A stretch of 13,429 nt of DNA from Lentisphaerota bacterium. GTDB lineage: Bacteria; Verrucomicrobiota; Kiritimatiellia; JAAZAB01. The notes under the pieces were generated by a model. The model had not been told where the DNA came from. It saw nothing but the letters and a program-made list of their open reading frames with translations, and did no database searches. A program made the position numbers and the translations under genes. This document shows positions 681 through 13,429 of the stretch, one piece after another; the first letter of the stretch is position 1; every line of letters starts with the position of its first letter. The stretch lies in contig JAAZAB010000165.1 of NCBI GenBank assembly GCA_012514555.1, positions 1 through 13,429 of the forward strand. The letters run 5' to 3'.

Positions 681-1289
681 ATGGAAACACTGGGCGCCTG
701 GTGGAACGGGCTGGGAACCGTGAACCAATGGTTTTACGGCGTGGCCTTCTTTTTCGGCGCGATCTTTCTGTGGCAGATGATCATGTCATTCATCGGCCTG
801 GAACATGACGTGGGGCTTGACACCCAGGTCGAGCCCGACTCAGTTCACGATACGCCGGACGACGCCACCCAGACCCTGGCGGCTTTCAAATTAATCAGCA
901 TCCGCTCAATCCTGGCCTTTCTGACGCTCTTCTCCTGGGGCGGCGCATTGTACCTCAATCAAGGCCTGCCCATGGGCCGCGCCCTGGGCTACTCCATTCT
1001 GTGGGGCCTGGCAGCCATGCTGGCGGTTTCTTTTATCTTCAGCCTGATGGGCAGAATGACGGAGTCCGGAAACATAAAAATCGGCTCTTGCCTGGGCGTC
1101 AACACCACTGTTTATCTCGACATTCCAGCCGGAGGCGTGGGAGAAATACGCGTCCCTTGCAGCGGAGTCATGACCCACATCAAGGCGCGCTCCGCAAAAG
1201 GCGACGCCATAAAGGCAGGCACGCCCGTCAAGGTTGTGCGCCTGGTGGAATCCAACACCGTTGAAGTCGAAACTGTCGAAGCCGGATAG
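681..1289 (+). CDS. NfeD-like membrane protein (YuaF/YqiJ family): N-terminal transmembrane helices plus a C-terminal OB-fold beta-barrel, the usual partner of flotillin/SPFH proteins
   Basis: 202 aa. There are hydrophobic helices (GVAFFFGAIFLWQMIMSFIGL, ILAFLTLFSWGGALYL, ILWGLAAMLAVSFIFSLMG) and then a soluble C-terminus (VYLDIPAGGVGEIRVPCSGVMTHIKARSAKGDAIKAGTPVKVVRLVESNTVEV) typical of the NfeD short form. A GGAGA RBS lies 7 nt before the ATG, and the gene sits immediately upstream of a flotillin gene. Confidence 0.75.
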   Translation: METLGAWWNGLGTVNQWFYGVAFFFGAIFLWQMIMSFIGLEHDVGLDTQVEPDSVHDTPDDATQTLAAFKLISIRSILAFLTLFSWGGALYLNQGLPMGRALGYSILWGLAAMLAVSFIFSLMGRMTESGNIKIGSCLGVNTTVYLDIPAGGVGEIRVPCSGVMTHIKARSAKGDAIKAGTPVKVVRLVESNTVEVETVEAG

Positions 1290-1345
1290 CAACGCAGCCA
1301 GCCGCCGGGCAGGCTGAACGCGAATTACGAAGAAAGGAACGCGAT

Positions 1346-2920
1346 ATGAGCGAAATGCTTTTGACCAGCCTTTGGATGATCGGACAGGTTCAGCCGGATG
1401 GGAATCCCGCGCCATTCCTGGTCTTTTTCCTGCTGTTGTTCCTCATAGTCATGCTGATGACTTTCGTGCGCCGCTACAAGCGCTGCCCAGCGAACAAGAT
1501 ACTGGTAATATACGGCAAGACCGGCAGCGGCGCGGCCAAGTGCATTCACGGCGGCGCCAAGTTCGTCTGGCCCCTGCTTCAGGCGTACGATTTCCTGGAC
1601 CTCGAGCCGTTCGTGGTGCCCATAGATTTGTCCAACGCGCTTTCGCAGGAAAACATCCGCGTGAGCGTTCCCACCTCGGTCACCGCCGCCATATCCAACC
1701 AGCCGGGGATCATGGAAAACGCGGCCGTCCGCCTGCTCGGGCTTACGACCCAGCAGATACAGACCCAGGCCCAGGACATCATCATCGGCCAGATGCGCGC
1801 GGTCATAGCCACCATGCGCATCGAGGACATCAACCGCGACCGCCAGGCCTTCATGAGCAAGGTCAACGAAGCCGTGGCCGTCGAGCTGGAAAAGATCGGA
1901 CTCTCCCTCATCAACGTGAACATCCGCGACCTTGACGACGAGTCCGGCTACATCAAGGCCATAGGCCGCAAGGCTGCGGCCGAGGCGGTCAACCAGGCCA
2001 ACGTGGACGTTGCCGAGCAGGAAAAGACGGGACAGACCGGCGTTGCGGAACGCCAGCGCGACCAGCGCGTTGCCGTTGCGGCCGCCACGGCGGACGCCCA
2101 GATCGGGGAATGGGAAGCCGAAAAGCGCAGGCGCCAGCAAGTTGCCGCGGCCCAGGCCCAGGCCGAGATCGGGGAAGCCGCGGCCGACCGTGAAAAACGC
2201 CAGAACATAGCCCGCCTCGACGCGGAAGCCGTCCATGCCGAGACCGACGCCAACGCGCAGAAGGCCCGGTTCCGCGCCGACCAAAAGGTTGCCGAAGAGG
2301 AATCGCGCAACAAGGGCGATTCCGCGTCGCGCGAAGCGGACGGCGCAATCCGCGTGGCCCAGGAGACAGCCGAGAAGAAGGCTGAAGACGCCCGCGCAAT
2401 CCGCGAGCAGTCCCGGCTCAACGCCGAGATCGTAGTGCCGGCTGAAGCGCAGCGGAAAAAGATAGTGATCGGCGCGGAGGCCGAGAAGCAGCAGGCCGTG
2501 CTCGTGGCCCAGGGCCAGGCCGACGCCATGCTCGCCAGGATGACGGCCGAGGGGCGTGGCGTCCAGGCAGTGCTTGACGGCAAGGCCCAGGGCTACCGGA
2601 ACCTCGTGGCGTCAGCCGGCGATCCCCAGGTTGCGACCTCGCTGCTCATCATTGAGAAGCTCCTGGAAATATCGCACGTCCAGGCCCAGGCCATCCAGAA
2701 CCTGCCGCTCGAAAAGATAGTTGTCTGGGACGGCGGCGGAACGGGCGCCGGCGGCGTGGCGGAGCTCGGCAGGAGAATCATGGGCGTGCTCCCGCCAATG
2801 CACGAGCTGGCGCGCCAGGTCGGCCTTGATTTGCCCGAATTCCTCGGCAAGATCAATGCCGCCGCAAAGGCGGAGGCGGCAAAAACGCCGCCTGAATCCG
2901 ACACAGGGGCCAAGTCCTGA
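1346..2920 (+). CDS. Flotillin-like SPFH/band-7 protein (FloT/YqiK family) with a long Ala/Glu/Gln-rich coiled-coil region
   Basis: 524 aa. It has an N-terminal TM segment (PFLVFFLLLFLIVMLMTF) and an SPFH core (KILVIYGKTGSGAAKCIHGGAKFVWPLLQAYDFLDLEP...ENIRVSV...IIGQMRAVIATMRIEDINRDRQAF). An extended AEAEKRRRQQVAAAQAQAEIGEAAADREKRQ-type EA-repeat coiled coil follows. A GAAAGGAA RBS precedes the ATG. Confidence 0.85.
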   Translation: MSEMLLTSLWMIGQVQPDGNPAPFLVFFLLLFLIVMLMTFVRRYKRCPANKILVIYGKTGSGAAKCIHGGAKFVWPLLQAYDFLDLEPFVVPIDLSNALSQENIRVSVPTSVTAAISNQPGIMENAAVRLLGLTTQQIQTQAQDIIIGQMRAVIATMRIEDINRDRQAFMSKVNEAVAVELEKIGLSLINVNIRDLDDESGYIKAIGRKAAAEAVNQANVDVAEQEKTGQTGVAERQRDQRVAVAAATADAQIGEWEAEKRRRQQVAAAQAQAEIGEAAADREKRQNIARLDAEAVHAETDANAQKARFRADQKVAEEESRNKGDSASREADGAIRVAQETAEKKAEDARAIREQSRLNAEIVVPAEAQRKKIVIGAEAEKQQAVLVAQGQADAMLARMTAEGRGVQAVLDGKAQGYRNLVASAGDPQVATSLLIIEKLLEISHVQAQAIQNLPLEKIVVWDGGGTGAGGVAELGRRIMGVLPPMHELARQVGLDLPEFLGKINAAAKAEAAKTPPESDTGAKS

Positions 2921-3072: not shown

Positions 3073-4317
3073 ATGAAGATACGCATCCTGTTCCGGTCGC
3101 TGGAGAACCGGAACTTCAGGCTTTTTTACGCCGGCCAGGGCATTTCGCTCATCGGCACCTGGATGCAGATGACGGCGGTCGCGTGGCTCGTTTGGCGAAT
3201 GAGCCACAACGCCATGCTGCTGGGCCTTGTCGGGTTCGCCTCGCGGATACCCACTTTCGTGCTTGCGCCTTTTGCCGGCGTCCTGATCGACCGCATGGAC
3301 CGGCGCCGGCTCGTCATGGCGACGCAGGCGGTGGCGATGCTCCAGGCGCTGGCGCTGGCCGGCCTGATGTTTTCCGGGTTCCTCGAGGTCTGGCATATCA
3401 TCGCGCTTTCGCTCCTGCTCGGGTTCATCAACTCTTTCGACGTGCCGGCGCGCCAGTCGTTCTTCATCCAGATGCTCGATCGGCGCGAGGATATCACGAA
3501 CGCCATTGCCCTCAACTCCACCATGGTCAACGGCGCACGGCTGATCGGCCCCTCGATTGCTGGGATCCTGATAGCGGCCTTCGGCGAAGCCGTATGTTTC
3601 CTGCTCAACGGCTTAAGCTACATCGCCGTCATTGCCGGGCTGATGATGATGCGCGTCCGTTCCAATCCGCGTCCGGCGCTGAAGACCGCGGCGCTGGACA
3701 ACCTCATCGAGGGCTTTCGCTACACCTTCGGCTTTCCGCCGATCCGCGCGCTGCTGCTCCTGGTGGCGCTGGTCAGCCTGGCGGGCGCGTCATACACGCA
3801 GCTCCTGCCCATATTCGCGCAGCAGGTCCTGCGCGGCGACGCGCGCACGCAAGGGTTCCTGGTTTCCGCGGCCGCGGTCGGCGCGCTCGGCGGGGCGCTA
3901 TACCTGGCCTCGCGCAGCAGCACGCGCGGGCTCGGGCGGCTCATAGCCATTGCGCCCACTGTTTTCGGCGCCGGCCTGATCGCCATGGGATTGTCGCAGC
4001 GGCTCTGGCTGACGCTGATGATTATGCCGGTCGTCGGGCTCGGGCTGATGGTGCAGATGGCTTCGACAAACACCATGCTGCAGACGATCGTCGAGGACGA
4101 CAAGCGCGGGCGGGTGATGAGCTTCTACTCGATGGCTTTCATGGGAATGGTTCCGCTCGGCAGCCTGGGCTCCGGCATCCTGGCGCGATTCATCGGAGCG
4201 CCATGGGTGGTGATTCTCGGCGGCGCCTGCTGCATCGCGGCATCGGCCGTCTTCGTCCAAAGGCTGCCGGCCCTGCGCATCCTGGTCCACCCTGTTATGC
4301 CGGCGGATGCACAATGA
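3073..4317 (+). CDS. MFS transporter, DHA3/EntS-like (enterobactin-exporter family), ~12 TM helices
   Basis: 414 aa. The N-terminus (FRLFYAGQGISLIGTWMQMTAVAWLV) and motifs (LLGLVGFASRIPTFVLAPFAGVLIDRMDRRR, NGLSYIAVIAG) are characteristic of the MFS_3/EntS family. Hydrophobicity is consistent with 12 TM helices. Confidence 0.85.
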   Translation: MKIRILFRSLENRNFRLFYAGQGISLIGTWMQMTAVAWLVWRMSHNAMLLGLVGFASRIPTFVLAPFAGVLIDRMDRRRLVMATQAVAMLQALALAGLMFSGFLEVWHIIALSLLLGFINSFDVPARQSFFIQMLDRREDITNAIALNSTMVNGARLIGPSIAGILIAAFGEAVCFLLNGLSYIAVIAGLMMMRVRSNPRPALKTAALDNLIEGFRYTFGFPPIRALLLLVALVSLAGASYTQLLPIFAQQVLRGDARTQGFLVSAAAVGALGGALYLASRSSTRGLGRLIAIAPTVFGAGLIAMGLSQRLWLTLMIMPVVGLGLMVQMASTNTMLQTIVEDDKRGRVMSFYSMAFMGMVPLGSLGSGILARFIGAPWVVILGGACCIAASAVFVQRLPALRILVHPVMPADAQ

Positions 4318-4377
4318 CGCTCTCCCCCAGCCTGTGCCGCCATCCAACCCGTCAAAACAAGGAGGGCGCACGGCCTC

Positions 4378-4429
4378 GGCCGCCGGACATGCGCGGCAAA
4401 TCGCGCCACGCCGTGGCGCGCTACAGAAG
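4378..4429. terminator. 52-bp repeat element, copy 2 (inverted relative to copy 1), between the convergent MFS and tad-like operon 3' ends; the - strand RNA would read GC-rich hairpin + AUUUG, a likely bidirectional or operon terminator
   Basis: The 36-bp core CGGCAAATCGCGCCACGCCGTGGCGCGCTACAGAAG (4394-4429) is the reverse complement of 139-174. The palindrome CGCGCCACG-C-CGTGGCGCG lies at 4403-4421. It sits in the 135-bp gap between the MFS stop (4317) and the ATPase stop (4453). Confidence 0.5.
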
Positions 4430-4452
4430 GCAAGGCGGGCGCGCATCCGGCT

Positions 4453-5541
4453 TCAGGCGCGCTCATCGGCCCATGGCTCGGGCAGGTTGAGGCGCCTGGC
4501 CTCTTCGGCGAAGCGCGGCGTTGCGCCGGTGAAAACGTGATGCCCGGCCACCTTTCCATCGGGCGCGAGGCCTTCGGGCCTGAAGACATAAATATCCTGC
4601 ATTTTATAGACGCCCTCCTCGAGCCCGAGGACCTCGGAAATATGCGTTATTTTGCGGGAGCCGTCGGAGAGGCGGGCGGTCTGGATAATCACGCCGATCG
4701 CGCCTGCGACCATGGCGCGGACAGCCGGCATGGGGATGTCAATCCCGCTCAGGAGCGTGCAGGTTTCGAGGCGCGAGAGCGTGTCCAGGGGCGTGTTCGC
4801 ATGAATGGTGGACATGCTCCCGGCATGGCCAGTGTTGAGCGCCTCGAGCAGGTCCAGAGCCTCTCCGCCCCGCACCTCGCCGATCACCAGCCGGTCCGGG
4901 CGCAGGCGCAGGGCCGCTATGAGCAGGTCGCGTATCGTGACCTCGCCCTTGCCGTCCTTGTCGGGCTTTCGCGTCTCGAAGCGCACGGTGTGCGGCTGCT
5001 GGAGTTGAAGTTCGCTGGCGTCCTCGATAACCAGGATGCGTTCGCCCGGGTCTATGATGCCGCTGAGCACGTTCAGGACCGAGGTTTTTCCCGACGAGGT
5101 GGCGCCGGAAACGACAAGGTTCTTGTGGAGCCGGACGATGGTCTCGATCAGGCGCACACCGCCTTCCGAAATGCTGCCGAACCTGACAAGCTCGGCAGGC
5201 GTCAGCTTCTCCTTTCTGAACTTGCGTATGGAAACCACCGTTCCGGTCCGAGACAGCGGGGGTATGACGGCCTCGAGGCGGGAGCCGTCCGGCAGGCGCG
5301 CTTCGAGAATGGGGTTTTCCTCGCCGAGCATGCGGCCGACGCTCCGGGCAACGTTCATGGCGGCCGCTCGCAGCGCGTTCTCGCTGCAGAAGCAGGCATT
5401 GGTGCTCTCGATCCGGCCCCGCCGCTCCACGTAGATTCGGTCCGGGCCATTGATCATTATTTCCGAGACATCAGGATCGTCAAGGAACGGCGCAATCGGC
5501 TCGAAGAAAAGATACAGGAATGCATTCGGATCGGTTGGCAT
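4453..5541 (-). CDS. Short CpaF/TadA/VirB11-family secretion ATPase (N2 + C-terminal ATPase domains only, no N-terminal extension); the second ATPase of the operon
   Basis: 362 aa. Walker A is GATSSGKTS, the Asp box/Walker B are [12 protein letters not shown] and [13 protein letters not shown], and the His box is [13 protein letters not shown]. The N-terminal [22 protein letters not shown] is the typical start of the CpaF N2 domain. An AGGGGA RBS lies 8 nt upstream, and only 10 nt separate it from the upstream gene stop. Confidence 0.85.
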
Positions 5542-5551
5542 CGAGTTTCCC

Positions 5552-7444
5552 CTATTTGCTCAAAAACGGCTTTTCACGGCTTGGAATGACTTCCTCGCCG
5601 CCGGCCGGAAAACTGCCCTTGCCCCGGCCGCCCGCCTGTTCGGACGGCTGCGCAGGGGCAGCCGCCCGGCCCGGGGCTGATTCTCCGCCTTTGGGCGCCT
5701 GGTCCTTGGCCGCCGGAGCCGCCGGAGCGGGCTGCGCCGGGAGAATGGAAGCGCCGCTTTTGAGACGCCGGTCGATCACGGCCCGGGCGTCCTGTTCGGC
5801 AGGCAGGAGCGCGCGCAGTTCCTTGAGGCGTTTCCGGGCCATGGCGGCATACTGGTCCGAGGATGAGGCCACATCGAGAATCTGCATGTAAAGGGCGGCC
5901 GCGTCGCGAACGGAGCCGCGCGACTCGAGCACATAGGCTTTGTTGAAGGCTGTCCCGGTAAAAGCGGCGATGTCCATGCGCAGCCGCGCAAACTCGGCAT
6001 CATGCCCGGGTGACCCGGCGGCAAAGCCGGCGATCAGGAGACTTTTCAGCGCTCGGCTGTTCAGCCTGGCCGCCTCGTAGAGCTCGCCGCGCGCCTTGGC
6101 CGCGGCGGCGTCCGCCATCGCTTTCCGGCCATCCTGCTCGTATTCCTCACGGCCGGGGCCCAGGCGCTTGCGAAGATCGTCCATTCTGGCCAACGCGATC
6201 GTCCTGGCGCCGGGATAGTTCCGGAACGCCGGAGAATCCAGGAGAGCGGTCCCGGCCTCGATGGCCGCGACGTCATTGCTTTGCGCCAGAAGCGCGTCCA
6301 GCGCGGCAGCCTGGGCCAGTAGATTCCCGCGGGCGGCGAGGTCGGCTTTCTGGGAGAAGGACAAGCCGGCCTGCGCCGCCAGGCCAGAGCACACGGACTG
6401 CGCGTCCGGTATCCGCCAGGCATTGAACATGTCATCGGCCTGCTTGAACTGGCCGGCAAGCTCAATCTGGCGCCCGGCCAGGCTGACCAGGTCCTGGCGC
6501 TTGTACTCGTTCAACACCTTCGCGCCGTCAAGAACGGAGAGAACGTCGGCATATCGGGCCTGTTGAAGAAATGCGGCGGCCTTTTCGCAGGCCTCCTCGC
6601 CGCGGAGGTAGGCTTCGAATTCCGACACCTGGCCGTCCGCGGGCGACATTGTCTTCATGCGCTCCAGCGCGCGCCGGGCGCGGGGGATGTCGCCGCTGTC
6701 AATGCACTCCATGCCTTCGGCAAAAGCCTCCTGCATGTGCGCGCCCCGGATTGCGCGCAGGAGGCCGAGCGCCTGAGTATTGCGCGGGTCCAGCGCGACC
6801 GACTCGTTCAACAGGGCCGCGGCCGCCAGGTAATCGTTGCTTGCATAAAGCGCATACTGCCCCTGCTGCATCAGCTGCGCGGCGCGGCGATAGATGTCGG
6901 CCCTGCCATTCAGGGCGGACCCCTCGCCGGGGCCGGGGCCGGCCGGGGCGTTGGACTCCGCGTTAAGCGCCGGAGCAGGCCCGGCCGCCGGGCTGTCGTC
7001 CGCCTGCGGCCGGGCTCTCTTCAACATCCAAGCGGCCAGGGTCGCCAGGCACAGGACAAGGAGAACGGCAACGAGCATCTTGTTCCTGGATCCGGGCGCG
7101 GCCGCGCCGACCGCTCCCTCGTGCGCCGGCACGATGAAGTTGAAATCTCCCAGCGCGACCTGTTTTCCGGGCCGGAGATTCGCTTCGCGCCGGGCAAGCC
7201 GGCGCCCATCCACCTGCACGCCGTTCACGCTGCCAAGGTCGCGGATGTAAAGGCCCCGGGGCGTGAGCGCAAGCTCGGCGTGCCTTGGCGCAAGCGAAGG
7301 GGAATCCAGGCAAAAGTCGCAGAGCGCATCGCGGCCGAGAACGCGCGGCTTGCCGCCGAGAGGCAACTCCAACTCAAGGACGTCGGAGCCGTCGCGGCGC
7401 TTCAGCGCAATTTTCAGGGAAGGCACAAGGTTTTCTTCATTCAC
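5552..7444 (-). CDS. Bitopic membrane protein: N-terminal cytoplasmic FHA domain, single TM helix, large periplasmic Ala-rich TPR-like repeat domain
   Basis: 630 aa. The FHA signature is RVLGRDALCDFCLDSPSLAPRHAELALTPRGLYIRDLGSVNGVQVDGRRLARREANLRPGKQVALGDFNF (the GR...SR-H...S-NG...GD pattern). The TM helix is MLVAVLLVLCLATLAAWML. The C-terminal ~480 aa are helical and Ala/Leu-rich with TPR-like periodicity (AAALLNESVALDPRNTQALGLLRAI..., AAFLQQARYADVLSVL...). A GGAG RBS is present. Confidence 0.7.
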   Translation of the reverse strand: MNEENLVPSLKIALKRRDGSDVLELELPLGGKPRVLGRDALCDFCLDSPSLAPRHAELALTPRGLYIRDLGSVNGVQVDGRRLARREANLRPGKQVALGDFNFIVPAHEGAVGAAAPGSRNKMLVAVLLVLCLATLAAWMLKRARPQADDSPAAGPAPALNAESNAPAGPGPGEGSALNGRADIYRRAAQLMQQGQYALYASNDYLAAAALLNESVALDPRNTQALGLLRAIRGAHMQEAFAEGMECIDSGDIPRARRALERMKTMSPADGQVSEFEAYLRGEEACEKAAAFLQQARYADVLSVLDGAKVLNEYKRQDLVSLAGRQIELAGQFKQADDMFNAWRIPDAQSVCSGLAAQAGLSFSQKADLAARGNLLAQAAALDALLAQSNDVAAIEAGTALLDSPAFRNYPGARTIALARMDDLRKRLGPGREEYEQDGRKAMADAAAAKARGELYEAARLNSRALKSLLIAGFAAGSPGHDAEFARLRMDIAAFTGTAFNKAYVLESRGSVRDAAALYMQILDVASSSDQYAAMARKRLKELRALLPAEQDARAVIDRRLKSGASILPAQPAPAAPAAKDQAPKGGESAPGRAAAPAQPSEQAGGRGKGSFPAGGEEVIPSREKPFLSK

Positions 7445-7462: not shown

Positions 7463-8491
7463 TCAGGGGTTGAATCTCACCCGTTCCGCCTCGTCCCATT
7501 TCCGGGCCCCGTACTTGAACTGCCATGAATTGCGGTCCGGGAACAGGCGCATGATGCAGTCTGCCGCATCGAAGGCATCCGGCTTGTTTCCAAGCCCGAG
7601 CGCCTGTTCCAGGCGTCGGCGCTGGCGGTAGAAAGTTTCCTCGCGGAAGAAGAAGCACAACTGCATCTGCGCCAGGGCCGCATCATATTCGGCGGGCCTC
7701 GGGTCCCGGCGGTATGTGGCGGCCAGCGCCGCGGCGTACTGCTGCATGGCGCCGTTGTAGTAATTCACGTTGGAGTCGCGCCCCATGAGAAGTTCATTAC
7801 CGTAGCGGATGGCGTTGGCGACATCGTTGCTTGTCGCAAGGGCCGGAAGCCGCCGAACAAAGGATTCCCCCGCCAGCCTGGCGTCCTGCAAAGGCGCAAT
7901 GGAAACGCCCTTGATGAAGCCGTCGAACAAGTCCGGACCGTTCGTCAAGGCCGCGGGAAAGACGAACAGGAACCTGTAGGAGTCCGTTTCGTTTTTGACG
8001 ACCAGGCCCAGGACGGCCATCTTTGCAGTGTCGCCCGAGAACCTGACGGCCGGGCATCCGAAAAGGTTGGTTGGCGCCCTGTCCAGGAGCACGAACCCGG
8101 GATAGACAAGCCGCGCGCTGCTTTGAAAATTATCCACCTCGGTGTCCATGTCCAGGAGGCAGCGGCAGGGGTCGCGGTTCGCGTCATAGAACATCGTCGC
8201 CTCTGTTCCGGGGCACTCGAACTGGCGCTTGGCCAGCATGCTGAGGGACTCCATCTGCACCCAGCCCGGCGGCATCCGGATAACGGCGGCGAACTCGCTG
8301 TCCTCGTACAAGTCCGGAGTTTTTTTTGCGGAATCGCGGCAGCCGGCGCTTCCGGCGGCCGCGAGCGCGAGCAGAAGCGCGGGCGCCAGGCGCATTATAA
8401 AATCCGGCAGGCGCATCCCGCGCCCGGATCCGTCCGACGGCATGAGCGCGCGCGGGGCGCCGGGCAATTCCGTATCAGGGCTCATTATCAT
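7463..8491 (-). CDS. Putative lipoprotein of unknown function (lipobox LAAAGSAGC); start codon uncertain (internal ATGs at 8416 and 8395 give a cleaner signal peptide)
   Basis: 342 aa in the longest ORF. MRLAPALLLALAAAGSAGC fits a type-II signal peptide with a lipobox Cys. I recognise no conserved domain. The gene is tightly packed in the operon, 18-19 nt from each neighbour. Confidence 0.55.
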   Translation of the reverse strand: MIMSPDTELPGAPRALMPSDGSGRGMRLPDFIMRLAPALLLALAAAGSAGCRDSAKKTPDLYEDSEFAAVIRMPPGWVQMESLSMLAKRQFECPGTEATMFYDANRDPCRCLLDMDTEVDNFQSSARLVYPGFVLLDRAPTNLFGCPAVRFSGDTAKMAVLGLVVKNETDSYRFLFVFPAALTNGPDLFDGFIKGVSIAPLQDARLAGESFVRRLPALATSNDVANAIRYGNELLMGRDSNVNYYNGAMQQYAAALAATYRRDPRPAEYDAALAQMQLCFFFREETFYRQRRRLEQALGLGNKPDAFDAADCIMRLFPDRNSWQFKYGARKWDEAERVRFNP

Positions 8492-8510: not shown

Positions 8511-8858
8511 TCATTCGATCAGCCTCAGAGCGTCGCCGATGGCCAGCGCCCAGCGCGACAGCGAGCCGGCCGCGGTTTCCAGCGTATGCCGCCCGCCGGG
8601 GTCCCCGCAGACGAGCATGCGCCATGGCTTCAGGTTTTCCGCCAGCCCGGCAACGCGCCATTCAGCGTCGAGAAATATCACGTCTATGGGCATGCGCATG
8701 AAAAACGTGTGTATGGCGCGGCAGTCCGGGAAGAACATGCCCTCGCCCGGCTCCAGCCCAACCCGGCCCATCAGGCCGCGCATGCGTTTGCGCAGGCTGA
8801 ACGCGCCGGCCACGCCGGTCAGCAGCACCCGCCCTGTTGTTGCATGCTCAAGGATCAT
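8511..8858 (-). CDS. DUF192 (UPF0127/COG1430) family protein
   Basis: 115 aa. Family-typical motifs are GLMGR, GMFF, IHTFFMRMPIDVIFLD and TLETAAG. The size and order of the motifs match DUF192. Confidence 0.7.
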   Translation of the reverse strand: MILEHATTGRVLLTGVAGAFSLRKRMRGLMGRVGLEPGEGMFFPDCRAIHTFFMRMPIDVIFLDAEWRVAGLAENLKPWRMLVCGDPGGRHTLETAAGSLSRWALAIGDALRLIE

Positions 8859-8870
8859 ATTGGCCCAGTG

Positions 8871-9794
8871 TCATTGGTTCATGTAGTACTGGATCATGAC
8901 AGGCCCGATCAGCATGATCAGGATTGACGGAAAGATGCAGCTTAGCAGGGGCAGCAGCATTTTGACGGGCGCTTCCATCGCCAGCTTTTCCACATATTGC
9001 GCCTTGCGCTCCCGGAACTCGCGGGCCTGGATGCGAAGGAGCGGGCCGAGCTCCGTGCCCAGTTCCTCGGCCTGGGTCATCATGTCGATTGTCACGGTAA
9101 TCGGCTCAATGCCTATGCGCCTGGCCATGTCCTTCATGGCATTGACGCGCCGCGCGCCGAGGTGGATTTCGTTGAGCAGGCGCATCAGCTCCTCCGAGAG
9201 CGGGCTCAGCGGAATGTTGCCCACGATCCGCTGGATCGCTATGGTCATGTCCATTCCGGATTCCATGGACAGCGTCAGCAGATCGAGAAAAAATGGCCAG
9301 TCGGACAGAATCTGGCGCCGGCGCGCGGCCCGGGCATTGTCGAGCGGCAGCACGGGAAAGAAGAAGGCCGCAAGGGCCAGGATGGCGACAAAGAGCAGGC
9401 CCGAGCCCAGGTCGGACTCCCGCTCGTGCGCGCGCTGGAAAACGAAGAGCAATGCCGCGCCGAGCGCGCCGGAGCCCAGCGCAAGAACGAACTGCAGCGA
9501 AACCATCTCCTCGGGCGTGAGAGCGGTGTCCACGCCGGCCTGGCGCAGCCGCGTGCGCATTCCGCGCACGAGGGCGTTATCCGCGCCAAGAACCCTGTTG
9601 AGGAGCCGCGTCATTCCGTGCAGCAGGGGTGTGATCCAGAGCATCCAGCCCACGCGCTTGCGCCGGTATTGCGACAGGAACATCCCGTAGCCTTCCATGC
9701 GCTTTGCCAGGAGCGAATAGGCCAGCATGACGGTGGCCGCGAAAAGCAGGATCAAGCCCAGCGTCATTTCATTGAACAATTCGCTCATGCCCAC
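8871..9794 (-). CDS. tadC: Tad/Flp platform protein TadC-like (GspF/T2SSF family, polytopic inner-membrane protein)
   Basis: 307 aa. It has an N-terminal TM helix, a cytoplasmic T2SSF domain (TLSMESGMDMTIAIQRIVGNIPLSPLSEELMRLLNEIHLG...), and C-terminal TM helices (LLPLLSCIFPSILIMLIGPVMI). It starts 6 nt after the tadB stop. Confidence 0.8.
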   Translation of the reverse strand: MGMSELFNEMTLGLILLFAATVMLAYSLLAKRMEGYGMFLSQYRRKRVGWMLWITPLLHGMTRLLNRVLGADNALVRGMRTRLRQAGVDTALTPEEMVSLQFVLALGSGALGAALLFVFQRAHERESDLGSGLLFVAILALAAFFFPVLPLDNARAARRRQILSDWPFFLDLLTLSMESGMDMTIAIQRIVGNIPLSPLSEELMRLLNEIHLGARRVNAMKDMARRIGIEPITVTIDMMTQAEELGTELGPLLRIQAREFRERKAQYVEKLAMEAPVKMLLPLLSCIFPSILIMLIGPVMIQYYMNQ

Positions 9795-9800
9795 CCCGGC

Positions 9801-10664
9801 CTAAAGACGAATGGATACTATCTTGCGGATCATGAAGAACCCGATAACGTCAAGCACCACGACTGCCGCCAGCATGGCCCAGCCCATCATTGTAGTGTAC
9901 ATCAGCCGCATCAACTCCGGGTTGATGAAATGGATGATGATGCCCAGGGCCACGGGAATAAGCACCACGATGATGGCCTGGAGTTTGCCCTGGCTTGTCA
10001 GGGCCTTGATCTTGCCGTCTATCCGGTTGCGCTCGCGTATCGTGTCGCTGAGCTGGCCGAAGACCACCGGCAGTTCGCCGCCGGTCTGTATCGTCAGGCG
10101 GACCGCGGCGACGAGAAGCATCAGGTCCGCGTCGTTCAGGCGCTTGTTCATGTTTTCAAGGGCTTCCTCGATGCGCACGCCGAGGTTGATCTCGCGCACG
10201 GTAAGCCGGAACTCCTGCCCGGCCGGGTCCGGGAGCTGGCGCGCGGCCAGGTCAAGAGCCTGGAGAAAAGAAAAGCCGCTGCGCAGTCCGTTGCTGATGG
10301 TGTTCATTGCGGCGATGAGCTGGGAATTGAACTTCTCACGGCGCCGGGCGACCTTCATGTGAATGAGAATGTCCGGGATGAACGCGCCAATGCCGGCGGC
10401 CGCGGCGGCCAGGATAAAAGGGACGGGGCGCATGAGGCCGGACGACACGACGAGCGCGATGACGCCCAGCAGGAAGGCCGATATCACCTTCATATGCATC
10501 AGGCGCTCCACGGGAATGAACGAGGCGCCCTGCTGGATCAGCTCGGCCGTGCGGCCAAGGTAACGCTCCTCGTACTCGCCATAGCCGCCCGCAAGCGAGC
10601 GGAGCAGGAGAAAAAACAGCAGGCTGACCGAGATGAACGAGACCGCTAGAATTACTGCCAGCAT
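9801..10664 (-). CDS. tadB: Tad/Flp platform protein TadB-like (GspF/T2SSF family); the real start is at the ATG at 10664, not the longer track ORF reaching 10874
   Basis: 287 aa from MLAVILAVSFISVSLLFFLLL. The T2SSF domain is FSFLQALDLAARQLPDPAGQEFRLTVREINLGVRIEEALENM...LTIQTGGELPVVFGQLSDTIRERNR. A GGGGA RBS lies 7 nt upstream. The longer ORF-track version overlaps the upstream ATPase gene in another frame. Confidence 0.8.
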   Translation of the reverse strand: MLAVILAVSFISVSLLFFLLLRSLAGGYGEYEERYLGRTAELIQQGASFIPVERLMHMKVISAFLLGVIALVVSSGLMRPVPFILAAAAAGIGAFIPDILIHMKVARRREKFNSQLIAAMNTISNGLRSGFSFLQALDLAARQLPDPAGQEFRLTVREINLGVRIEEALENMNKRLNDADLMLLVAAVRLTIQTGGELPVVFGQLSDTIRERNRIDGKIKALTSQGKLQAIIVVLIPVALGIIIHFINPELMRLMYTTMMGWAMLAAVVVLDVIGFFMIRKIVSIRL

Positions 10665-10680: not shown

Positions 10681-12306
10681 TCATTTGACGACGAAAATGC
10701 CCATGTCCACGTCCACGCCCCGCTCGCGCAGGCGCATGATGAAGTTCGGGATCGTGCCCGTGGGCTGGAATTCGCCCACAACCCGGCCCTCGGCGTCGTA
10801 GCCCGACTGGCGGAACTCGAATATGTCCTGGAGCGCGATCTCTCCGCCCCCGGCCATGGGCAGCACCTCGGCAATGGCCATGACCTTTCTTGAGCCGTCC
10901 GAAAGGCGCGAGACCTGGCAGACCAGGTTCACGGCCGCCCCGATCTGCTGGCGGATGGCGGCCACGGGCAAATCCATTCCCGACATCAGCACCAGCGTTT
11001 CAAGGCGGGCCATCACATCCTTCGGCGAGTTCGCGTGCACGGTGGTGAGCGACCCGTCATGCCCCGTGTTCATGGCCTGCAGCATGTCAAGGGCCTCCCC
11101 GCCGCGGCACTCGCCGACAACTATGCGGTCGGGCCGCATGCGCAGCGCGTTCCGGACGAGCGTGCGTATGGAAATCTCGCCCTTGCCTTCGATGTTCGGC
11201 GGGCGCGCCTCCATGCGCACCACGTGCTCCTGGTCAAGGCGCAGCTCCGCGGCGTCCTCGATGGTCACGATGCGCTCGGCGCGCGGAATGAACGAGGACG
11301 CGATGTTGAGGAGCGTTGTCTTGCCGGAGCCGGTGCCGCCCGAGATGACCGTGTTCTGCCTGCGCTCGACCGCGATCCTGAGAAAAGCCGCCATCGCGGG
11401 GCTGAGCGTCTTGAACCCCACCAGGTCCTCCATCGTCAGCGGCTTTGCGGGGAACTTGCGGATGTCGAGGGATGCGCCGTCAATGGCCACGGGCGATATC
11501 ACCGCGTTCACCCTGAAACCGTCCGGAAGGCGCGCGTCAACGATCGGGGAGCTTTCGTCAATGCGCCGCCCGAGCGGGCCCACGATGCGCTCGATGATGG
11601 CCTCGAGCTGGCCGGGGCTGTCAAACTTGCGGTTCGAGGGCGCAAGCCTGCCCCTGCGCTCGACAAAAATCCTGTTCCGGCCGAAGCACATTATCTCCGT
11701 GATCTCCGGGTCGTTGATCAGGTCGTCGAGCGGGCCGAAGCCGAGCACGTCGTGCACGACCTCCTTCTGAAGCACATCGGCCGCGACGCCCTGGCGCTCG
11801 GCCTCGGCGCTCAGCTCGCCGATTATTTCGCCGATGAGCTTGCGGGCTCGCTGCCTGAGCTCCAGGGATGCCGCGGCGCCAATGGTGTCGAGGCTCTTGA
11901 GGTCCATCCGGTCGAGCAGTATCTCGTGAACCTTGCGCTTGAGCTGCTCGCGGGCGCCCGCGTTCTCCCCGATATCCGGCCTGGCGGCGGCGGCGGCATC
12001 CTCGACGTCGGACGCCTCCTCGAAGTAGATCATGTTCCATTCGCCGACGGTCAGCTTGTCGCCATTGTGCAGGCGCTGCTCGCGGCCGGCCACCGGGAGG
12101 CCGTTCACGGAAACGGGATGGCGCGAGGACACCGGCTGGACATAAAGCCAGCCGCGCACGTTCAGCACTCGGCAATGCATGCCGGCGACACCCTTTGCCG
12201 GGAGGCGAAGGTCGCAGGAGGACGACGACCCGACCGTGACGAACTCCCTGGTTTTCAGGAAAGACAGGTCCGTCTGCGTTCCGTCGGCATGGAGAAGGTA
12301 AATCAC
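10681..12306 (-). CDS. cpaF: CpaF/TadA-family secretion ATPase with an N-terminal FHA domain fused in place of the usual N-terminal extension; probable GTG start at 12306
   Basis: The FHA-like region is VIYLLHADGTQTDLSFLKTREFVTVGSSSSCDLRLPAKGVAGMHCRVLNVRGWLYVQPVSSRHPVSVNGLPVAGREQRLHNGDKLTVGEW. The CpaF N-terminal helical region follows (EQLKRKVHEILLDRMDLKSLD). Walker A is GGTGSGKTT, Walker B is DRIVVGECRGGEA, and the His box is TGHDGSLTTVHAN. The track ORF (to 12498) overlaps the secretin gene. The GTG at 12306 has a GGTGGTG RBS ~7 nt upstream and leaves a 25-nt gap after the secretin stop. Confidence 0.85.
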   Translation of the reverse strand: MIYLLHADGTQTDLSFLKTREFVTVGSSSSCDLRLPAKGVAGMHCRVLNVRGWLYVQPVSSRHPVSVNGLPVAGREQRLHNGDKLTVGEWNMIYFEEASDVEDAAAAARPDIGENAGAREQLKRKVHEILLDRMDLKSLDTIGAAASLELRQRARKLIGEIIGELSAEAERQGVAADVLQKEVVHDVLGFGPLDDLINDPEITEIMCFGRNRIFVERRGRLAPSNRKFDSPGQLEAIIERIVGPLGRRIDESSPIVDARLPDGFRVNAVISPVAIDGASLDIRKFPAKPLTMEDLVGFKTLSPAMAAFLRIAVERRQNTVISGGTGSGKTTLLNIASSFIPRAERIVTIEDAAELRLDQEHVVRMEARPPNIEGKGEISIRTLVRNALRMRPDRIVVGECRGGEALDMLQAMNTGHDGSLTTVHANSPKDVMARLETLVLMSGMDLPVAAIRQQIGAAVNLVCQVSRLSDGSRKVMAIAEVLPMAGGGEIALQDIFEFRQSGYDAEGRVVGEFQPTGTIPNFIMRLRERGVDVDMGIFVVK

Positions 12307-12331: not shown

Positions 12332-13429
12332 TTACCAGATGCGGTACAATTTCGGACGCTTCCGGGGCTTTGCGCCGGCCTTGGGCCGGGGCGCCTCGGG
12401 CGCCTGGTACACGCCGGTGCGCATTTCCTCAAGGTAGGCGTCGACCCGGGGCTGAACGTCCCGCGGAATGGGCGCGGGCGCCCGGGCGCCGAACTCATCC
12501 GGCGTGAGCGCCGACAGAATCCGCGGCGTCACGATGGCCAACAACTGAGTGTCCTCGTCCTTCCTGCTCTTGGAGCCGAAAATCCAGTCCAGAACCGGGA
12601 GATCGCCGAGGATTGGGCTGCGGGACTTGTAGAAGTTCTTCATGTTCTCGAGCAGCCCGGAAAGCACTATGCTCTGCCCGACCTGGCAAACCACGGTGCA
12701 CTCGGTTTCGAACTTGTCGAGGTTGAGCTGCTCGCTCCCGGACTTGGCCGTGGGTATGGACACCGTGATCTTCATCGTGTTAAGGATTTCCTTCTCGCTC
12801 ACGAAAGAGGGCCGGACCTCGAGCTGGACGCCGTACTCCACGTTCTTCATGTCCGCGGCCTGGACGCCCGAGACCTCGTAGTAGTATTCGCCCCCGGACA
12901 GGAACTTGCCGGCCTCGTTGTTCTTGGTGCACAGGCGGGGATGCGCGAGGATGGTCGCGTTGCCTTCATCCATCAGCACCTTGAGCTGCGGCGCGATCTG
13001 GGCGGACCAGGTCAGCGTAACGTCCATGGCGCTGTAGTCGGCATCCTTGCGGGTCTGCTGGCCCTGGACGCCGCCGTTCAGGATCAGGCCCTGCCCGCCG
13101 TCGAGCAGGTTGACGCCGATGTCGAACCCGCTGCTCTTCGTGACTTTCAGGAACATGATCTCGGTTTCGATCATGACGTCCCGAACCGAGAGCATGTCCA
13201 CCACGTTCGCCACCTGGGTCCGCGCAAGGCTCAGCACGTTCGACCGCTGGCTGTTGCCGAACACGAACCCGGAAATAAAGGCGGTCTGGCCGACGAGGTT
13301 GATCTTGACGGTTTCCACGCCGGCCGTGCGCCGGATGAAATCGGCAATCACCTCGTTTGACGGGCCGCTGTCGAAAACCGCGAGGTTGACCACCACGTCC
13401 GAGAACGCGGCCGCGATTTTCTGAACGCG
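12332..13429 (-). CDS. cpaC: Secretin (CpaC/RcpA/GspD family), C-terminal secretin domain plus part of the N-domains; the N-terminus lies beyond the window end
   Basis: It carries the canonical secretin C-terminal signature ILGDLPVLDWIFGSKSRKDEDTQLLAIVTPRIL, preceded by VEYGVQLEVRPSF...KITVSIPTAKSGSEQ. The reading frame is open to the window edge. A Pro/Lys-rich basic C-terminal tail (PRPKAGAKPRKRPKLYRIW) follows the secretin motif. Confidence 0.85.
   Translation of the reverse strand, partial: RVQKIAAAFSDVVVNLAVFDSGPSNEVIADFIRRTAGVETVKINLVGQTAFISGFVFGNSQRSNVLSLARTQVANVVDMLSVRDVMIETEIMFLKVTKSSGFDIGVNLLDGGQGLILNGGVQGQQTRKDADYSAMDVTLTWSAQIAPQLKVLMDEGNATILAHPRLCTKNNEAGKFLSGGEYYYEVSGVQAADMKNVEYGVQLEVRPSFVSEKEILNTMKITVSIPTAKSGSEQLNLDKFETECTVVCQVGQSIVLSGLLENMKNFYKSRSPILGDLPVLDWIFGSKSRKDEDTQLLAIVTPRILSALTPDEFGARAPAPIPRDVQPRVDAYLEEMRTGVYQAPEAPRPKAGAKPRKRPKLYRIW

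What the first reader, a model, noticed from the sequence alone, without database searches (positions are those of the whole stretch)
10681..12306. Tad-type ATPase with an N-terminal FHA domain
The first ~100 residues of this CpaF/TadA-family hexameric ATPase form an FHA (phosphothreonine-binding) fold where canonical CpaF has a disordered or non-FHA N-terminal extension. Its pattern is G-x-CDL-L...H-R...SSRH-VSVNG...NGD-L-VGEW. It feeds directly into the conserved CpaF helical N-domain and the Walker A/B and His boxes. An FHA-fused pilus/secretion motor suggests the motor is recruited or gated by a phosphorylated partner (a Hanks-type Ser/Thr kinase pathway), as with the T6SS Fha/PpkA threonine-phosphorylation pathway. 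I believe FHA-bearing components were reported for the Myxococcus Kil Tad-like predation apparatus, but I cannot verify that from here.
Basis: partly seen in the sequence, partly recalled or inferred. Interest (0 to 1): 0.75.

Follow-up and report, generated by a model that had tools for sequence, protein, structure and literature searches.

The report
FHA-fused Tad pilus motor ATPase
This gene encodes the motor ATPase of a Tad/Flp pilus with a real FHA domain at its N-terminus, an architecture already published; this copy has lost the residues that bind phosphothreonine, and its locus lacks the usual docking protein TadZ/CpaE.

Summary
Window 10681-12306 (minus strand) encodes a 541-aa CpaF/TadA ATPase (NCBI NLE66600.1, Lentisphaerota MAG). 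Residues 1-98 form a true FHA domain (Pfam 39.9 bits; AF2 pLDDT 92.6; all top Foldseek PDB hits are FHA domains). A disordered linker of about 17 residues joins it to the helical bundle, N-domain and ATPase domain, which match solved CpaF at E=5e-112.

It is not novel. This is the published "class III" CpaF architecture (Nat Commun 2025), and Myxococcus KilF is described as FHA-fused (eLife 2021). Nearly all of the 120 best database homologues carry FHA+T2SSE, across many phyla.

The phospho-gating interpretation is not supported for this copy. Only 2 of the 6 GR/SxxH/NG motif residues remain: R->S27, S->A41, N->H63, G->P64. No kinase or phosphatase gene lies within about 10 kb.

New in this analysis: among 73 related loci, a TadZ/CpaE gene accompanies 0 of 13 FHA-CpaF genes and 54 of 60 others (p=3e-10). 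FHA-type loci are also enriched for extra FHA proteins and a second, N-terminally short CpaF paralogue; this window has both.

Most likely the FHA is a tethered, phospho-independent docking or regulatory adaptor that takes the place of TadZ.

The parts
10681..12306 (-). FHA-CpaF/TadA gene, 541 aa plus stop; identical to NCBI NLE66600.1
12013..12306 (-). FHA domain, residues 1-98. All-beta sandwich with non-canonical apical loops: G26-S27, A41-G-M-H44, S61-R62-H63-P64, N68-G69, G88-E-W90
   Evidence: Pfam; AF2; Foldseek; motif mapping
11962..12012 (-). Disordered linker, residues 99-115 (pLDDT<50)
11794..11961 (-). Helical bundle (the 3HB of CpaF), residues about 116-171
   Evidence: AF2 helices 113-171; the alignment to CpaF 9e24 starts at residue 131
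10684..11793 (-). CpaF N-terminal domain plus C-terminal ATPase domain, residues 172-541. Walker A GGTGSGKT is residues 323-330 (nt 11317-11340); Walker B is IVTIEDAAEL; the His box is GHDGSLTTVHAN
12332..13429 (-). 3' part of the RcpA/CpaC-type secretin gene, cut by the contig end. The full gene is 507 aa in 98%-identical contigs
9801..10664 (-). TadB/CpaG-like platform protein, 287 aa (T2SSF)
8871..9794 (-). TadC/CpaH-like platform protein (T2SSF)
8511..8858 (-). DUF192 protein, 115 aa. A homologue lies after TadC in many of the related loci
7463..8491 (-). 342-aa protein with no family match. A Cys follows an N-terminal hydrophobic stretch, so it is a probable lipoprotein
5552..7444 (-). 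FHA - transmembrane helix - helical domain protein, 630 aa (NLE66595.1). It is a candidate partner or scaffold
4453..5541 (-). Second CpaF-family ATPase, 362 aa (NLE66594.1). It lacks the FHA, linker and helical bundle and is 47% identical to residues 188-522 of the first ATPase

Best explanation
The gene encodes the motor ATPase of a complete Tad/Flp pilus locus in a Lentisphaerota bacterium. Its architecture is the published class III CpaF: FHA domain, short disordered linker, three-helix bundle, N-domain, ATPase domain.

Shown: the hexameric-type ATPase core is a close homologue of Caulobacter CpaF. It sits between the secretin gene and the TadB/TadC platform genes, so it powers pilin insertion or extraction through that platform.

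Shown: the FHA fold is intact and conserved. In this lineage the three phosphopeptide-contacting positions are replaced by a different, itself conserved, set: Gly-Ser instead of Gly-Arg, Ala/Gln-x-x-His instead of Ser-x-x-His, and [S/P]-[K/R]-x-Pro instead of Ser-x-Asn-Gly.

Shown: the locus has no TadZ/CpaE. In canonical Tad machines that ParA/MinD-type protein forms a ring around CpaF and positions the machine.

Inferred: the FHA domain, swinging on its linker, is a phospho-independent (or at least non-canonical) protein-binding adaptor. It would dock or regulate the motor at the inner-membrane platform and so take over the role of TadZ/CpaE. This parallels Bdellovibrio, where a TadZ domain is fused at the same N-terminal position. 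The likeliest partners are encoded in the same operon: the cytoplasmic FHA end of the FHA-transmembrane protein, the second CpaF paralogue, or the cytoplasmic domains of TadB/TadC.
For: Identity as CpaF: T2SSE at 2.7e-60. The protein matches solved CpaF 9e24/8rkd at E=5e-112 over residues 131-534. The Walker A/B and His boxes are intact.

Locus: two Flp prepilins (G/QAMLEY, G/QAMTEY), an A24 peptidase, TadE/TadG-like genes, RcpC, secretin, this ATPase, TadB, TadC.

Architecture: AF2 shows FHA 1-98, disordered 99-115, helices 113-171, then NTD and CAD. This equals class III as defined in PMC12019362.

FHA fold.

Loss of the pThr motifs: residue-by-residue pairing with Ki-67 FHA (G30 R31 S45 H48 N67) gives G26 S27 A41 H44 H63. 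The motif definition (GR/SxxH/NG) and the precedent that FHA domains lacking these motifs do not bind pThr come from MxiG and EssC. Among the 111 nearest FHA-CpaF proteins, 65 lack R, S and N and 16 are fully canonical. In the listed rows, relatives at 54% identity or more have no Ser at 41 or Asn at 63, and one (P0014) keeps the Arg. Ser27 is conserved in 63 of 73 of the Arg/Lys-less subfamily, which points to selection rather than decay.

TadZ exclusivity: 0/13 versus 54/60 loci, Fisher p=3e-10. The TadZ profile seeds were verified as ParA/MinD+REC by Pfam. CpaE is described as a ubiquitous ring around CpaF. The Bdellovibrio TadZ-linker-TadA fusion recruits the motor through its N-terminal module.

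FHA-CpaF loci are enriched for other FHA proteins (6/13 vs 3/60, p=6e-4) and for a second CpaF paralogue (4/13 vs 1/60, p=0.003).

No Pkinase or PP2C gene lies within about 10 kb.
Against: No binding partner has been demonstrated, and no multimer modelling or experiment was possible.

The TadZ/FHA exclusivity rests on 73 loci chosen by similarity to this protein. It covers only +/-10 kb and has no phylogenetic correction, and a TadZ gene could lie elsewhere in the genome.

A conserved Lys/Arg at position 62 next to Ser27 and His63 could form an alternative phosphate site.

Related FHA-CpaF proteins in Myxococcota and some other lineages keep fully canonical GR/SxxH/NG motifs. Phospho-dependence is therefore probably ancestral and may persist in modified form.

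For EssC, the only function assigned to comparable degenerate FHA domains was protein stability.
Confidence: 0.5

Rival explanations
1. One reading: the FHA domain binds a phosphothreonine on a partner phosphorylated by a Hanks-type Ser/Thr kinase encoded elsewhere. The pilus motor would then be recruited or switched on by phosphorylation, as in the T6SS PpkA/Fha1 pathway.
For: The FHA fold is genuine. Cousins in Myxococcota (L004, L036) and 16 of the 111 nearest homologues keep canonical GR/SxxH/NG. The Kil literature proposes such a cascade. Conserved K/R62, S27 and H63 might form a substitute phosphate site.
Against: The Arg, Ser and Asn-Gly that contact the phosphopeptide are all replaced in this protein. 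In its close relatives the Ser and Asn positions are also replaced, and the Arg is replaced in nearly all. FHA domains lacking these motifs (MxiG, EssC) did not bind pThr or lack the binding residues. No kinase or phosphatase gene lies within about 10 kb. The linker of this protein carries no Thr.
Confidence: 0.2
2. The FHA domain is a degenerate, mainly structural appendage. It would be needed for folding, stability or hexamer packing of the ATPase, or act as an intramolecular autoinhibitory plug, and would have no external partner.
For: The ligand-binding motifs are lost. For EssC, removing the degenerate FHA domains only gave an undetectable protein and no partners were found. In Caulobacter CpaF the N-terminal disordered region itself affects extension and retraction (heading).
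Against: The apical-loop residues are replaced by a different conserved set (Ser27 in 63/73; G88 in 68/73 of the subfamily; Trp/Phe/Tyr at position 90 in 91 of all 111 nearest homologues) rather than drifting. The domain is separated from the body by a low-confidence linker rather than packed against it. The strong anticorrelation with TadZ suggests a functional substitution.
Confidence: 0.2
3. The FHA region is not translated because the true start is the internal Met43, or the gene is mis-called.
For: The start codon is GTG rather than ATG, and an in-frame ATG exists at codon 43.
Against: Residues 1-42 are conserved from the first residue in orthologues down to about 57% identity. They form strands 1-3 of a high-confidence fold. 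An SD-like motif precedes the GTG. The NCBI annotation uses the same start.
Confidence: 0.02

Closest known systems
Class III CpaF orthologues (FHA-IDR-3HB-NTD-CAD), e.g. Achromobacter xylosoxidans CpaF E3HIW0, as defined in Nat Commun 2025 (PMC12019362)
   Same: Same domain order, with the FHA joined to the CpaF body by a disordered linker. The ATPase core is homologous to Caulobacter CpaF (E=5e-112).
   Different: That paper reports class III mostly in betaproteobacteria and describes the FHA as phosphothreonine-binding. This copy is from Lentisphaerota, has a short linker of about 17 residues, and lacks the GR/SxxH/NG residues. The proteobacterial examples fetched here also deviate (GK and [A/G]xxH).
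KilF, the ATPase of the Myxococcus xanthus Kil Tad-like predation apparatus (eLife 2021, PMC8460266)
   Same: A hexameric Tad ATPase fused to an N-terminal FHA domain, in a locus with additional FHA-domain proteins. No TadZ/CpaE is mentioned for Kil and none was found here.
   Different: Kil is described as having a single ATPase, a short secretin lacking N0, and genes split over two clusters. Here there are two ATPases and one contiguous locus, and the secretin is 507 aa with a weak match to an N-terminal secretin domain. The Myxococcota relative fetched here (L004) has a canonical FHA; this one does not. The KilF sequence itself could not be retrieved for direct comparison.
Bdellovibrio bacteriovorus TadZA (TadZ-linker-TadA fusion; bioRxiv 2026.07.08.737194)
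   Same: An accessory module is fused through a flexible linker to the N-terminus of the Tad motor. In Bdellovibrio that module mediates recruitment by binding RomR.
   Different: The module there is a ParA/MinD-type TadZ domain, not an FHA domain.
EssC (T7SSb) and the T3SS YscD/MxiG cytoplasmic domains: degenerate FHA domains in secretion machines
   Same: An FHA fold at the cytoplasmic N-terminus of a secretion-machine component (of the motor ATPase itself in EssC), lacking the phosphothreonine-binding residues.
   Different: These are unrelated machines with different ATPase families (FtsK/SpoIIIE type in EssC). EssC has two tandem FHA domains followed by transmembrane helices.
T6SS threonine-phosphorylation pathway (PpkA/PppA/Fha1)
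   Same: An FHA protein associated with a contractile or secretion nanomachine.
   Different: Fha1 is a separate protein with a canonical FHA, and the kinase and phosphatase are encoded in the cluster. Here there is no kinase or phosphatase nearby and the FHA is non-canonical.

Membership tests
CpaF/TadA Tad-pilus motor ATPase (PilT/VirB11-like) | T2SSE ATPase domain above the Pfam threshold, with Walker A, Walker B/Asp box and His box | tested here: met
   PF00437 at 204 bits vs a cut-off of 24.9. GGTGSGKT 323-330, IVTIEDAAEL and GHDGSLTTVHAN are present, and many of these positions are invariant in 71 homologues.
CpaF/TadA Tad-pilus motor ATPase (PilT/VirB11-like) | Closest solved relatives are CpaF, with the match covering the helical bundle, NTD and CAD | tested here: met
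   9e24/8rkd CpaF at E=5e-112 over residues 131-534. The next hits (archaeal GspE-like, FlaI) are at 1e-45 or weaker.
CpaF/TadA Tad-pilus motor ATPase (PilT/VirB11-like) | Encoded in a tad/cpa operon with Flp pilin, prepilin peptidase, RcpC/CpaB, secretin, TadB and TadC | tested here: met
   Window genes. The full locus was read in 97-98%-identical contigs. Flp motifs are present.
CpaF/TadA Tad-pilus motor ATPase (PilT/VirB11-like) | Hexameric ATPase that drives pilus extension and retraction | not testable with these tools
   Needs biochemistry or genetics.
Canonical Tad system | TadZ/CpaE (ParA/MinD+REC) encoded next to the ATPase | tested here: not met
   No ParA-type Pfam hit in the 17.9-kb locus and no hit to a TadZ profile. 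TadZ is present in 54 of 60 non-FHA loci.
FHA domain (PF00498) | Profile match above the gathering threshold | tested here: met
   39.9 bits vs 20.7, residues 23-88, full model.
FHA domain (PF00498) | FHA beta-sandwich fold | tested here: met
   AF2 pLDDT 92.6. All 50 listed Foldseek PDB hits are FHA domains; best 3oun_A, TM 0.79, rmsd 1.9 A.
Phosphothreonine-binding (canonical) FHA | GR, SxxH and NG motifs that bind and position the phosphopeptide | tested here: not met
   G26-S27, A41-G-M-H44 and H63-P64: only 2 of 6 residues are kept (motif definition from PMC3162421).
Phosphothreonine-binding (canonical) FHA | Measured binding to pThr peptides | not testable with these tools
   Needs ITC, NMR or a peptide array.
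Class III CpaF (PMC12019362) | N-terminal FHA, then a disordered region, then 3HB, NTD and CAD | tested here: met
   AF2 full-length model; definition.
Kil-type Tad-like predation apparatus (M. xanthus) | ATPase fused to an N-terminal FHA, with several FHA proteins in the cluster | tested here: met
   FHA-CpaF plus one FHA-TM protein; feature as described.
Kil-type Tad-like predation apparatus (M. xanthus) | Single ATPase | tested here: not met
   A second CpaF paralogue lies at 4453-5541.
Kil-type Tad-like predation apparatus (M. xanthus) | Unusually short secretin lacking the N0 domain | tested here: inconclusive
   The secretin is cut by the contig end in the window. The 98%-identical orthologue is 507 aa with only a weak T2SS-T3SS_pil_N hit. 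No structural test of N0 was run.
Kil-type Tad-like predation apparatus (M. xanthus) | Phylogenetic placement with KilF/KilG/KilH; contact-dependent killing | not tested
The best Myxococcota relative (L004) is 51% identical.
T6SS-like threonine phosphorylation pathway | Hanks kinase and PP2C phosphatase encoded with the FHA component | tested here: not met
   No Pkinase or PP2C among the called genes within about 10 kb either side or in the window. The rest of the genome was not available.

The most novel reading that the evidence does not exclude
FHA-CpaF marks a distinct, widespread, TadZ-less branch of Tad machines. In it a tethered FHA domain (phospho-independent in this Lentisphaerota/Verrucomicrobiota-type 'GS' subfamily) replaces the TadZ/CpaE ring as the motor's docking and regulatory element. 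A second, N-terminally short CpaF paralogue, encoded next to an FHA-transmembrane scaffold, divides labour with the first ATPase (for example extension versus retraction). That would contrast with the single bifunctional ATPase paradigm for Tad pili.
Probability: 0.25. Interest if true: 0.55.

Novelty: new member of a known kind. Interest (0 to 1): 0.3.

Why it matters
As an architecture it does not change anything. FHA-fused CpaF is already classified in the literature and is common in databases, and this protein is already annotated as TadA.

Three points may matter to people working on Tad and Kil machines:
1. Many FHA-CpaF proteins, including this whole subfamily, lack the phosphothreonine-binding residues. 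The routine assumption that FHA implies a kinase cascade should be checked case by case.
2. FHA-CpaF and TadZ/CpaE appear mutually exclusive. This gives a testable idea of what the FHA is for.
3. Some of these loci carry two CpaF-type ATPases.

These are leads from a small, uncorrected sample, not established facts.

Tried and rejected
- The plus-strand reading of 10681-12306 contains an in-frame stop; the gene is on the minus strand.
- The longer ORF from ATG 12498 (605 aa) was rejected. It overlaps the secretin gene, its extra 64 residues are Arg/Pro-rich, and orthologues and NCBI start at the GTG.
- The internal Met43 start was rejected.
It gave no relative above 51% identity and did not return M. 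xanthus, so KilF could not be compared directly.
- The listing of cluster members on seven NCBI-derived homologues returned no organism names.
- The homologue search with the FHA-TM protein found only three orthologues and no taxonomy.
- The exhaustive representative search with the FHA domain alone was dominated by multi-FHA proteins whose scores add up. It was useless as a census of FHA-CpaF.
- A strict KGGxGK[ST] regex for TadZ missed most TadZ genes and was replaced by an iterated profile.
- The NJ tree of ATPase cores has no support values. It is used only descriptively: FHA-type CpaFs are not cleanly monophyletic there.
- No tRNA genes or Rfam matches were found in the window.
- NCBIfam has no model that this protein passes (best TIGR03819, 331 bits vs a 373 cut-off).
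Full report
**What is there**

The finding's coordinates are correct, but the gene lies on the minus strand; the plus-strand frame contains an in-frame stop. Read from GTG at 12306 to the stop at 10681-10683, the gene encodes 541 residues.

The start is well supported:
- The upstream secretin gene ends at 12332.
- No other start codon lies in frame between that stop and the GTG.
- A GGTGGTGA motif precedes the GTG.
- Orthologues from 98% down to about 57% identity all begin M[IA]YL[LI]H.
- The identical 541-aa sequence is in NCBI as NLE66600.1, [quoted passage not shown].

A 100%-identical flotillin on a contig of exactly 13,429 nt shows that the window is a whole contig of that Lentisphaerota MAG.

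**Domain anatomy**

Pfam finds FHA (PF00498, E=5.7e-10, 39.9 bits against a cut-off of 20.7, residues 23-88, whole model) and T2SSE (E=2.7e-60).

An AlphaFold2 model built on 71 homologues (mean pLDDT 85.9) shows four parts:
- residues 1-98: an all-beta domain, with block pLDDT 79-95;
- residues 99-115: a linker with pLDDT below 50;
- residues 113-171: helices;
- the remainder: the N-domain and the ATPase domain.

The N-terminal domain modelled alone has pLDDT 92.6. Its Foldseek hits in the PDB are FHA domains only in the 50 listed (FhaA 3oun_A, TM 0.79, rmsd 1.9 A; 123 hits at E<=1e-3).

Residues 131-534 align to the solved Caulobacter CpaF at E=5e-112. The Walker A, Walker B and His boxes are intact.

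**Context**

All neighbours lie on the same strand:
- the secretin gene, cut by the contig end;
- this ATPase;
- TadB and TadC;
- a DUF192 protein;
- a 342-aa probable lipoprotein;
- a 630-aa protein made of FHA, a transmembrane helix and a helical domain;
- a second CpaF-family ATPase of 362 aa, which lacks the FHA, linker and helical bundle and is 47% identical to the first.

Contigs 97-98% identical to the window give the rest of the locus upstream. It contains two Flp prepilins with the G/QAM[LT]EY processing motif, an A24 prepilin peptidase, TadE/TadG-like genes, RcpC/CpaB and a 507-aa secretin. It is a complete Tad/Flp pilus locus.

Two features stand out in it:
- There is no TadZ/CpaE gene.
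- No Ser/Thr kinase or PP2C phosphatase is called within about 10 kb on either side.

**Is the fusion new? No**

- Of the 120 best database homologues, nearly all carry PF00498 plus PF00437. Named sources include Spartobacteria, Verrucomicrobiae, Kiritimatiellae, Deltaproteobacteria, Schekmanbacteria, Sumerlaeota and Aureabacteria.
- A genome scan found FHA-bearing CpaF in Myxococcota, Spirochaetaceae, Lentisphaeraceae, Kiritimatiellae, Thauera, Acidithiobacillus, Chromatiales and Oleiphilus.
- The 2025 cryo-EM paper on CpaF classifies orthologues into three architectures. Class III is FHA-IDR-3HB-NTD-CAD.
- The 2021 Kil paper states that [quoted passage not shown].

**Does the FHA read phosphothreonine?**

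Canonical FHA domains use three motifs, GR, SxxH and NG. Secretion-machine FHA domains that lack them (MxiG, EssC) do not bind phosphothreonine or lack the binding residues.

The HMMER alignment to Ki-67 FHA, whose hallmark residues are G30, R31, S45, H48 and N67, pairs them with G26, S27, A41, H44 and H63 of this protein. The Gly of NG is Pro64. The family alignment agrees. Only the two structural residues survive.

This is not random decay:
- Among the 111 nearest FHA-CpaF proteins, 65 lack Arg, Ser and Asn together and 16 are fully canonical.
- In the listed rows, relatives at 54% identity or more have no Ser at 41 or Asn at 63; one (P0014) keeps the Arg.
- Within the Arg/Lys-less subfamily, Ser27 is conserved in 63 of 73 sequences.
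- Lys/Arg62 and the Gly-Glu/Asp-Trp loop are conserved as well.

The best sequence match in the PDB is the KIF13B FHA, which also has Gly-Ser. From my own knowledge, that domain binds centaurin-alpha1 without phosphorylation. Myxococcota and some other relatives keep the canonical motifs, so phospho-dependence may be ancestral.

For this copy, the kinase-gated model is not supported, though a non-canonical phosphate site cannot be excluded.

**What is the FHA for?**

I built profiles for the family's FHA domain and for TadZ/CpaE. Pfam confirmed the TadZ seeds as ParA/MinD with a receiver-like domain. I then scanned 83 fetched loci with both profiles.

Results for the 73 independent loci with at least 1.5 kb upstream:

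| Feature in the locus | FHA-CpaF loci | Other loci | Fisher p |
|---|---|---|---|
| TadZ/CpaE gene, adjacent or fused to CpaF | 0 of 13 | 54 of 60 | 3e-10 |
| Another FHA protein | 6 of 13 | 3 of 60 | 6e-4 |
| A second CpaF paralogue | 4 of 13 | 1 of 60 | 0.003 |

CpaE is described as a ubiquitous Tad component that forms a ring of six dimers around CpaF. In Bdellovibrio a TadZ domain is fused through a flexible linker to the N-terminus of TadA and mediates recruitment by RomR. The same fusion type appears in ten of the fetched loci.

Taken together, an N-terminal, linker-tethered adaptor appears to be a recurring solution. FHA and TadZ look like alternatives.

My best explanation (confidence about 0.5 for the mechanism, above 0.9 for the identity) is this. 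The FHA domain is a phospho-independent docking or regulatory adaptor of a TadZ-less Tad motor. Its likeliest partners are the co-encoded FHA-transmembrane protein, the second ATPase, or TadB/TadC.

Caveats:
- The sample was selected by similarity to this protein and is not phylogenetically corrected.
- Only 10-kb flanks were examined.
- No partner was tested.

**Comparison with Kil**

The locus shares with Kil the FHA-fused ATPase, extra FHA proteins and apparently no TadZ. It differs in having two ATPases, a single contiguous cluster and a 507-aa secretin. A Myxococcota MAG (L004) has the same gene order: secretin, FHA-CpaF, TadB, TadC, a 2xFHA-TPR protein, then a second CpaF. In a rough NJ tree the second-ATPase paralogues form their own deep clade.

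**Verdict**

This is a real feature, correctly located. It is an ordinary member of a published architecture, found in a phylum where it has not been discussed. The proposed phospho-gating is not supported for this copy. The TadZ exclusivity and the two-ATPase module are modest new leads.

Noticed in passing
window 4453-5541 (-); also L004 ~16773, L021 ~19159, L036 ~18265: A second CpaF-family ATPase (362 aa, NLE66594.1) with intact Walker and His boxes but no FHA, linker or helical bundle. Its orthologues in three other FHA-CpaF loci form a separate deep clade in a rough NJ tree. Tad pili are usually said to use a single bifunctional ATPase.
   Followed up: partly
window 5552-7444 (-): A 630-aa protein made of FHA, a transmembrane helix and a helical domain (NLE66595.1). 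Its FHA keeps GR and S-x-N-G but has Ala in place of the SxxH serine. Only three orthologues were found in 5.8 billion proteins, so it evolves fast. It has weak NCBIfam similarity to GltG and to the Akkermansia Amuc_1098 pilus protein. The Myxococcota locus L004 has a 2xFHA-TPR protein at the same position.
   Followed up: partly
83 fetched loci (L001-L083); window locus: TadZ/CpaE is absent from all 13 independent FHA-CpaF loci and present (adjacent or fused) in 54 of 60 loci whose CpaF lacks FHA (Fisher p=3e-10). I found no paper stating this. The sample is small and not phylogenetically corrected.
   Followed up: yes
L008, L009, L013, L016, L018, L019, L020, L023, L043, L065: CpaF genes of about 700-1260 aa with a ParA/MinD (TadZ-like) domain fused at the N-terminus (Bdellovibrio-type TadZA; Pfam CbiA+T2SSE confirmed for L020). 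They occur in Bdellovibrionales/Oligoflexia and also in Omnitrophota, WOR-3 and Eremiobacterota MAGs. The fusion is known for B. bacteriovorus from a 2026 preprint.
   Followed up: partly
window 12332-13429 (-): The secretin gene runs off the contig end. The 354-aa ORF listed with a GTG start is only the C-terminal part of a 507-aa RcpA/CpaC-type secretin seen whole in L001-L003.
   Followed up: yes
window 8511-8858 (-); many loci: A DUF192 gene follows TadC here, and a homologue lies at about the same position in roughly 30 of the 83 related Tad loci across many phyla, with or without FHA. Its role in Tad systems is unclear to me.
   Followed up: no
window 4317-4453 versus L002 13303-15585: Similarity to the 97%-identical contigs stops at window position 4429, just past the second ATPase. 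In L002 a 760-aa M28-peptidase/FG-GAP gene lies between that ATPase and the MFS_3 gene; the window has only 136 nt there. This is a strain-level indel at the edge of the Tad locus.
   Followed up: no
window 681-2920 (+) and 3073-4317 (+): An unannotated 202-aa membrane protein (NfeD-like by position and appearance; no Pfam hit), a 524-aa flotillin/SPFH protein and an MFS_3 transporter flank the Tad locus on the opposite strand. They appear ordinary and unrelated to the finding.
   Followed up: no
L005, L007, L011, L012, L014, L015, L040 (proteobacterial and spirochaete FHA-CpaF): These class III CpaFs also deviate from the canonical FHA motifs: Gly-Lys (Gly-Ser in L015) instead of Gly-Arg, and [A/G]-x-x-His (Ser kept in L015) instead of Ser-x-x-His. 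The literature describes the class III FHA simply as phosphothreonine-binding. Pfam FHA did not reach E<=0.001 for the Acidithiobacillus copy, though a family-specific profile did.
   Followed up: partly
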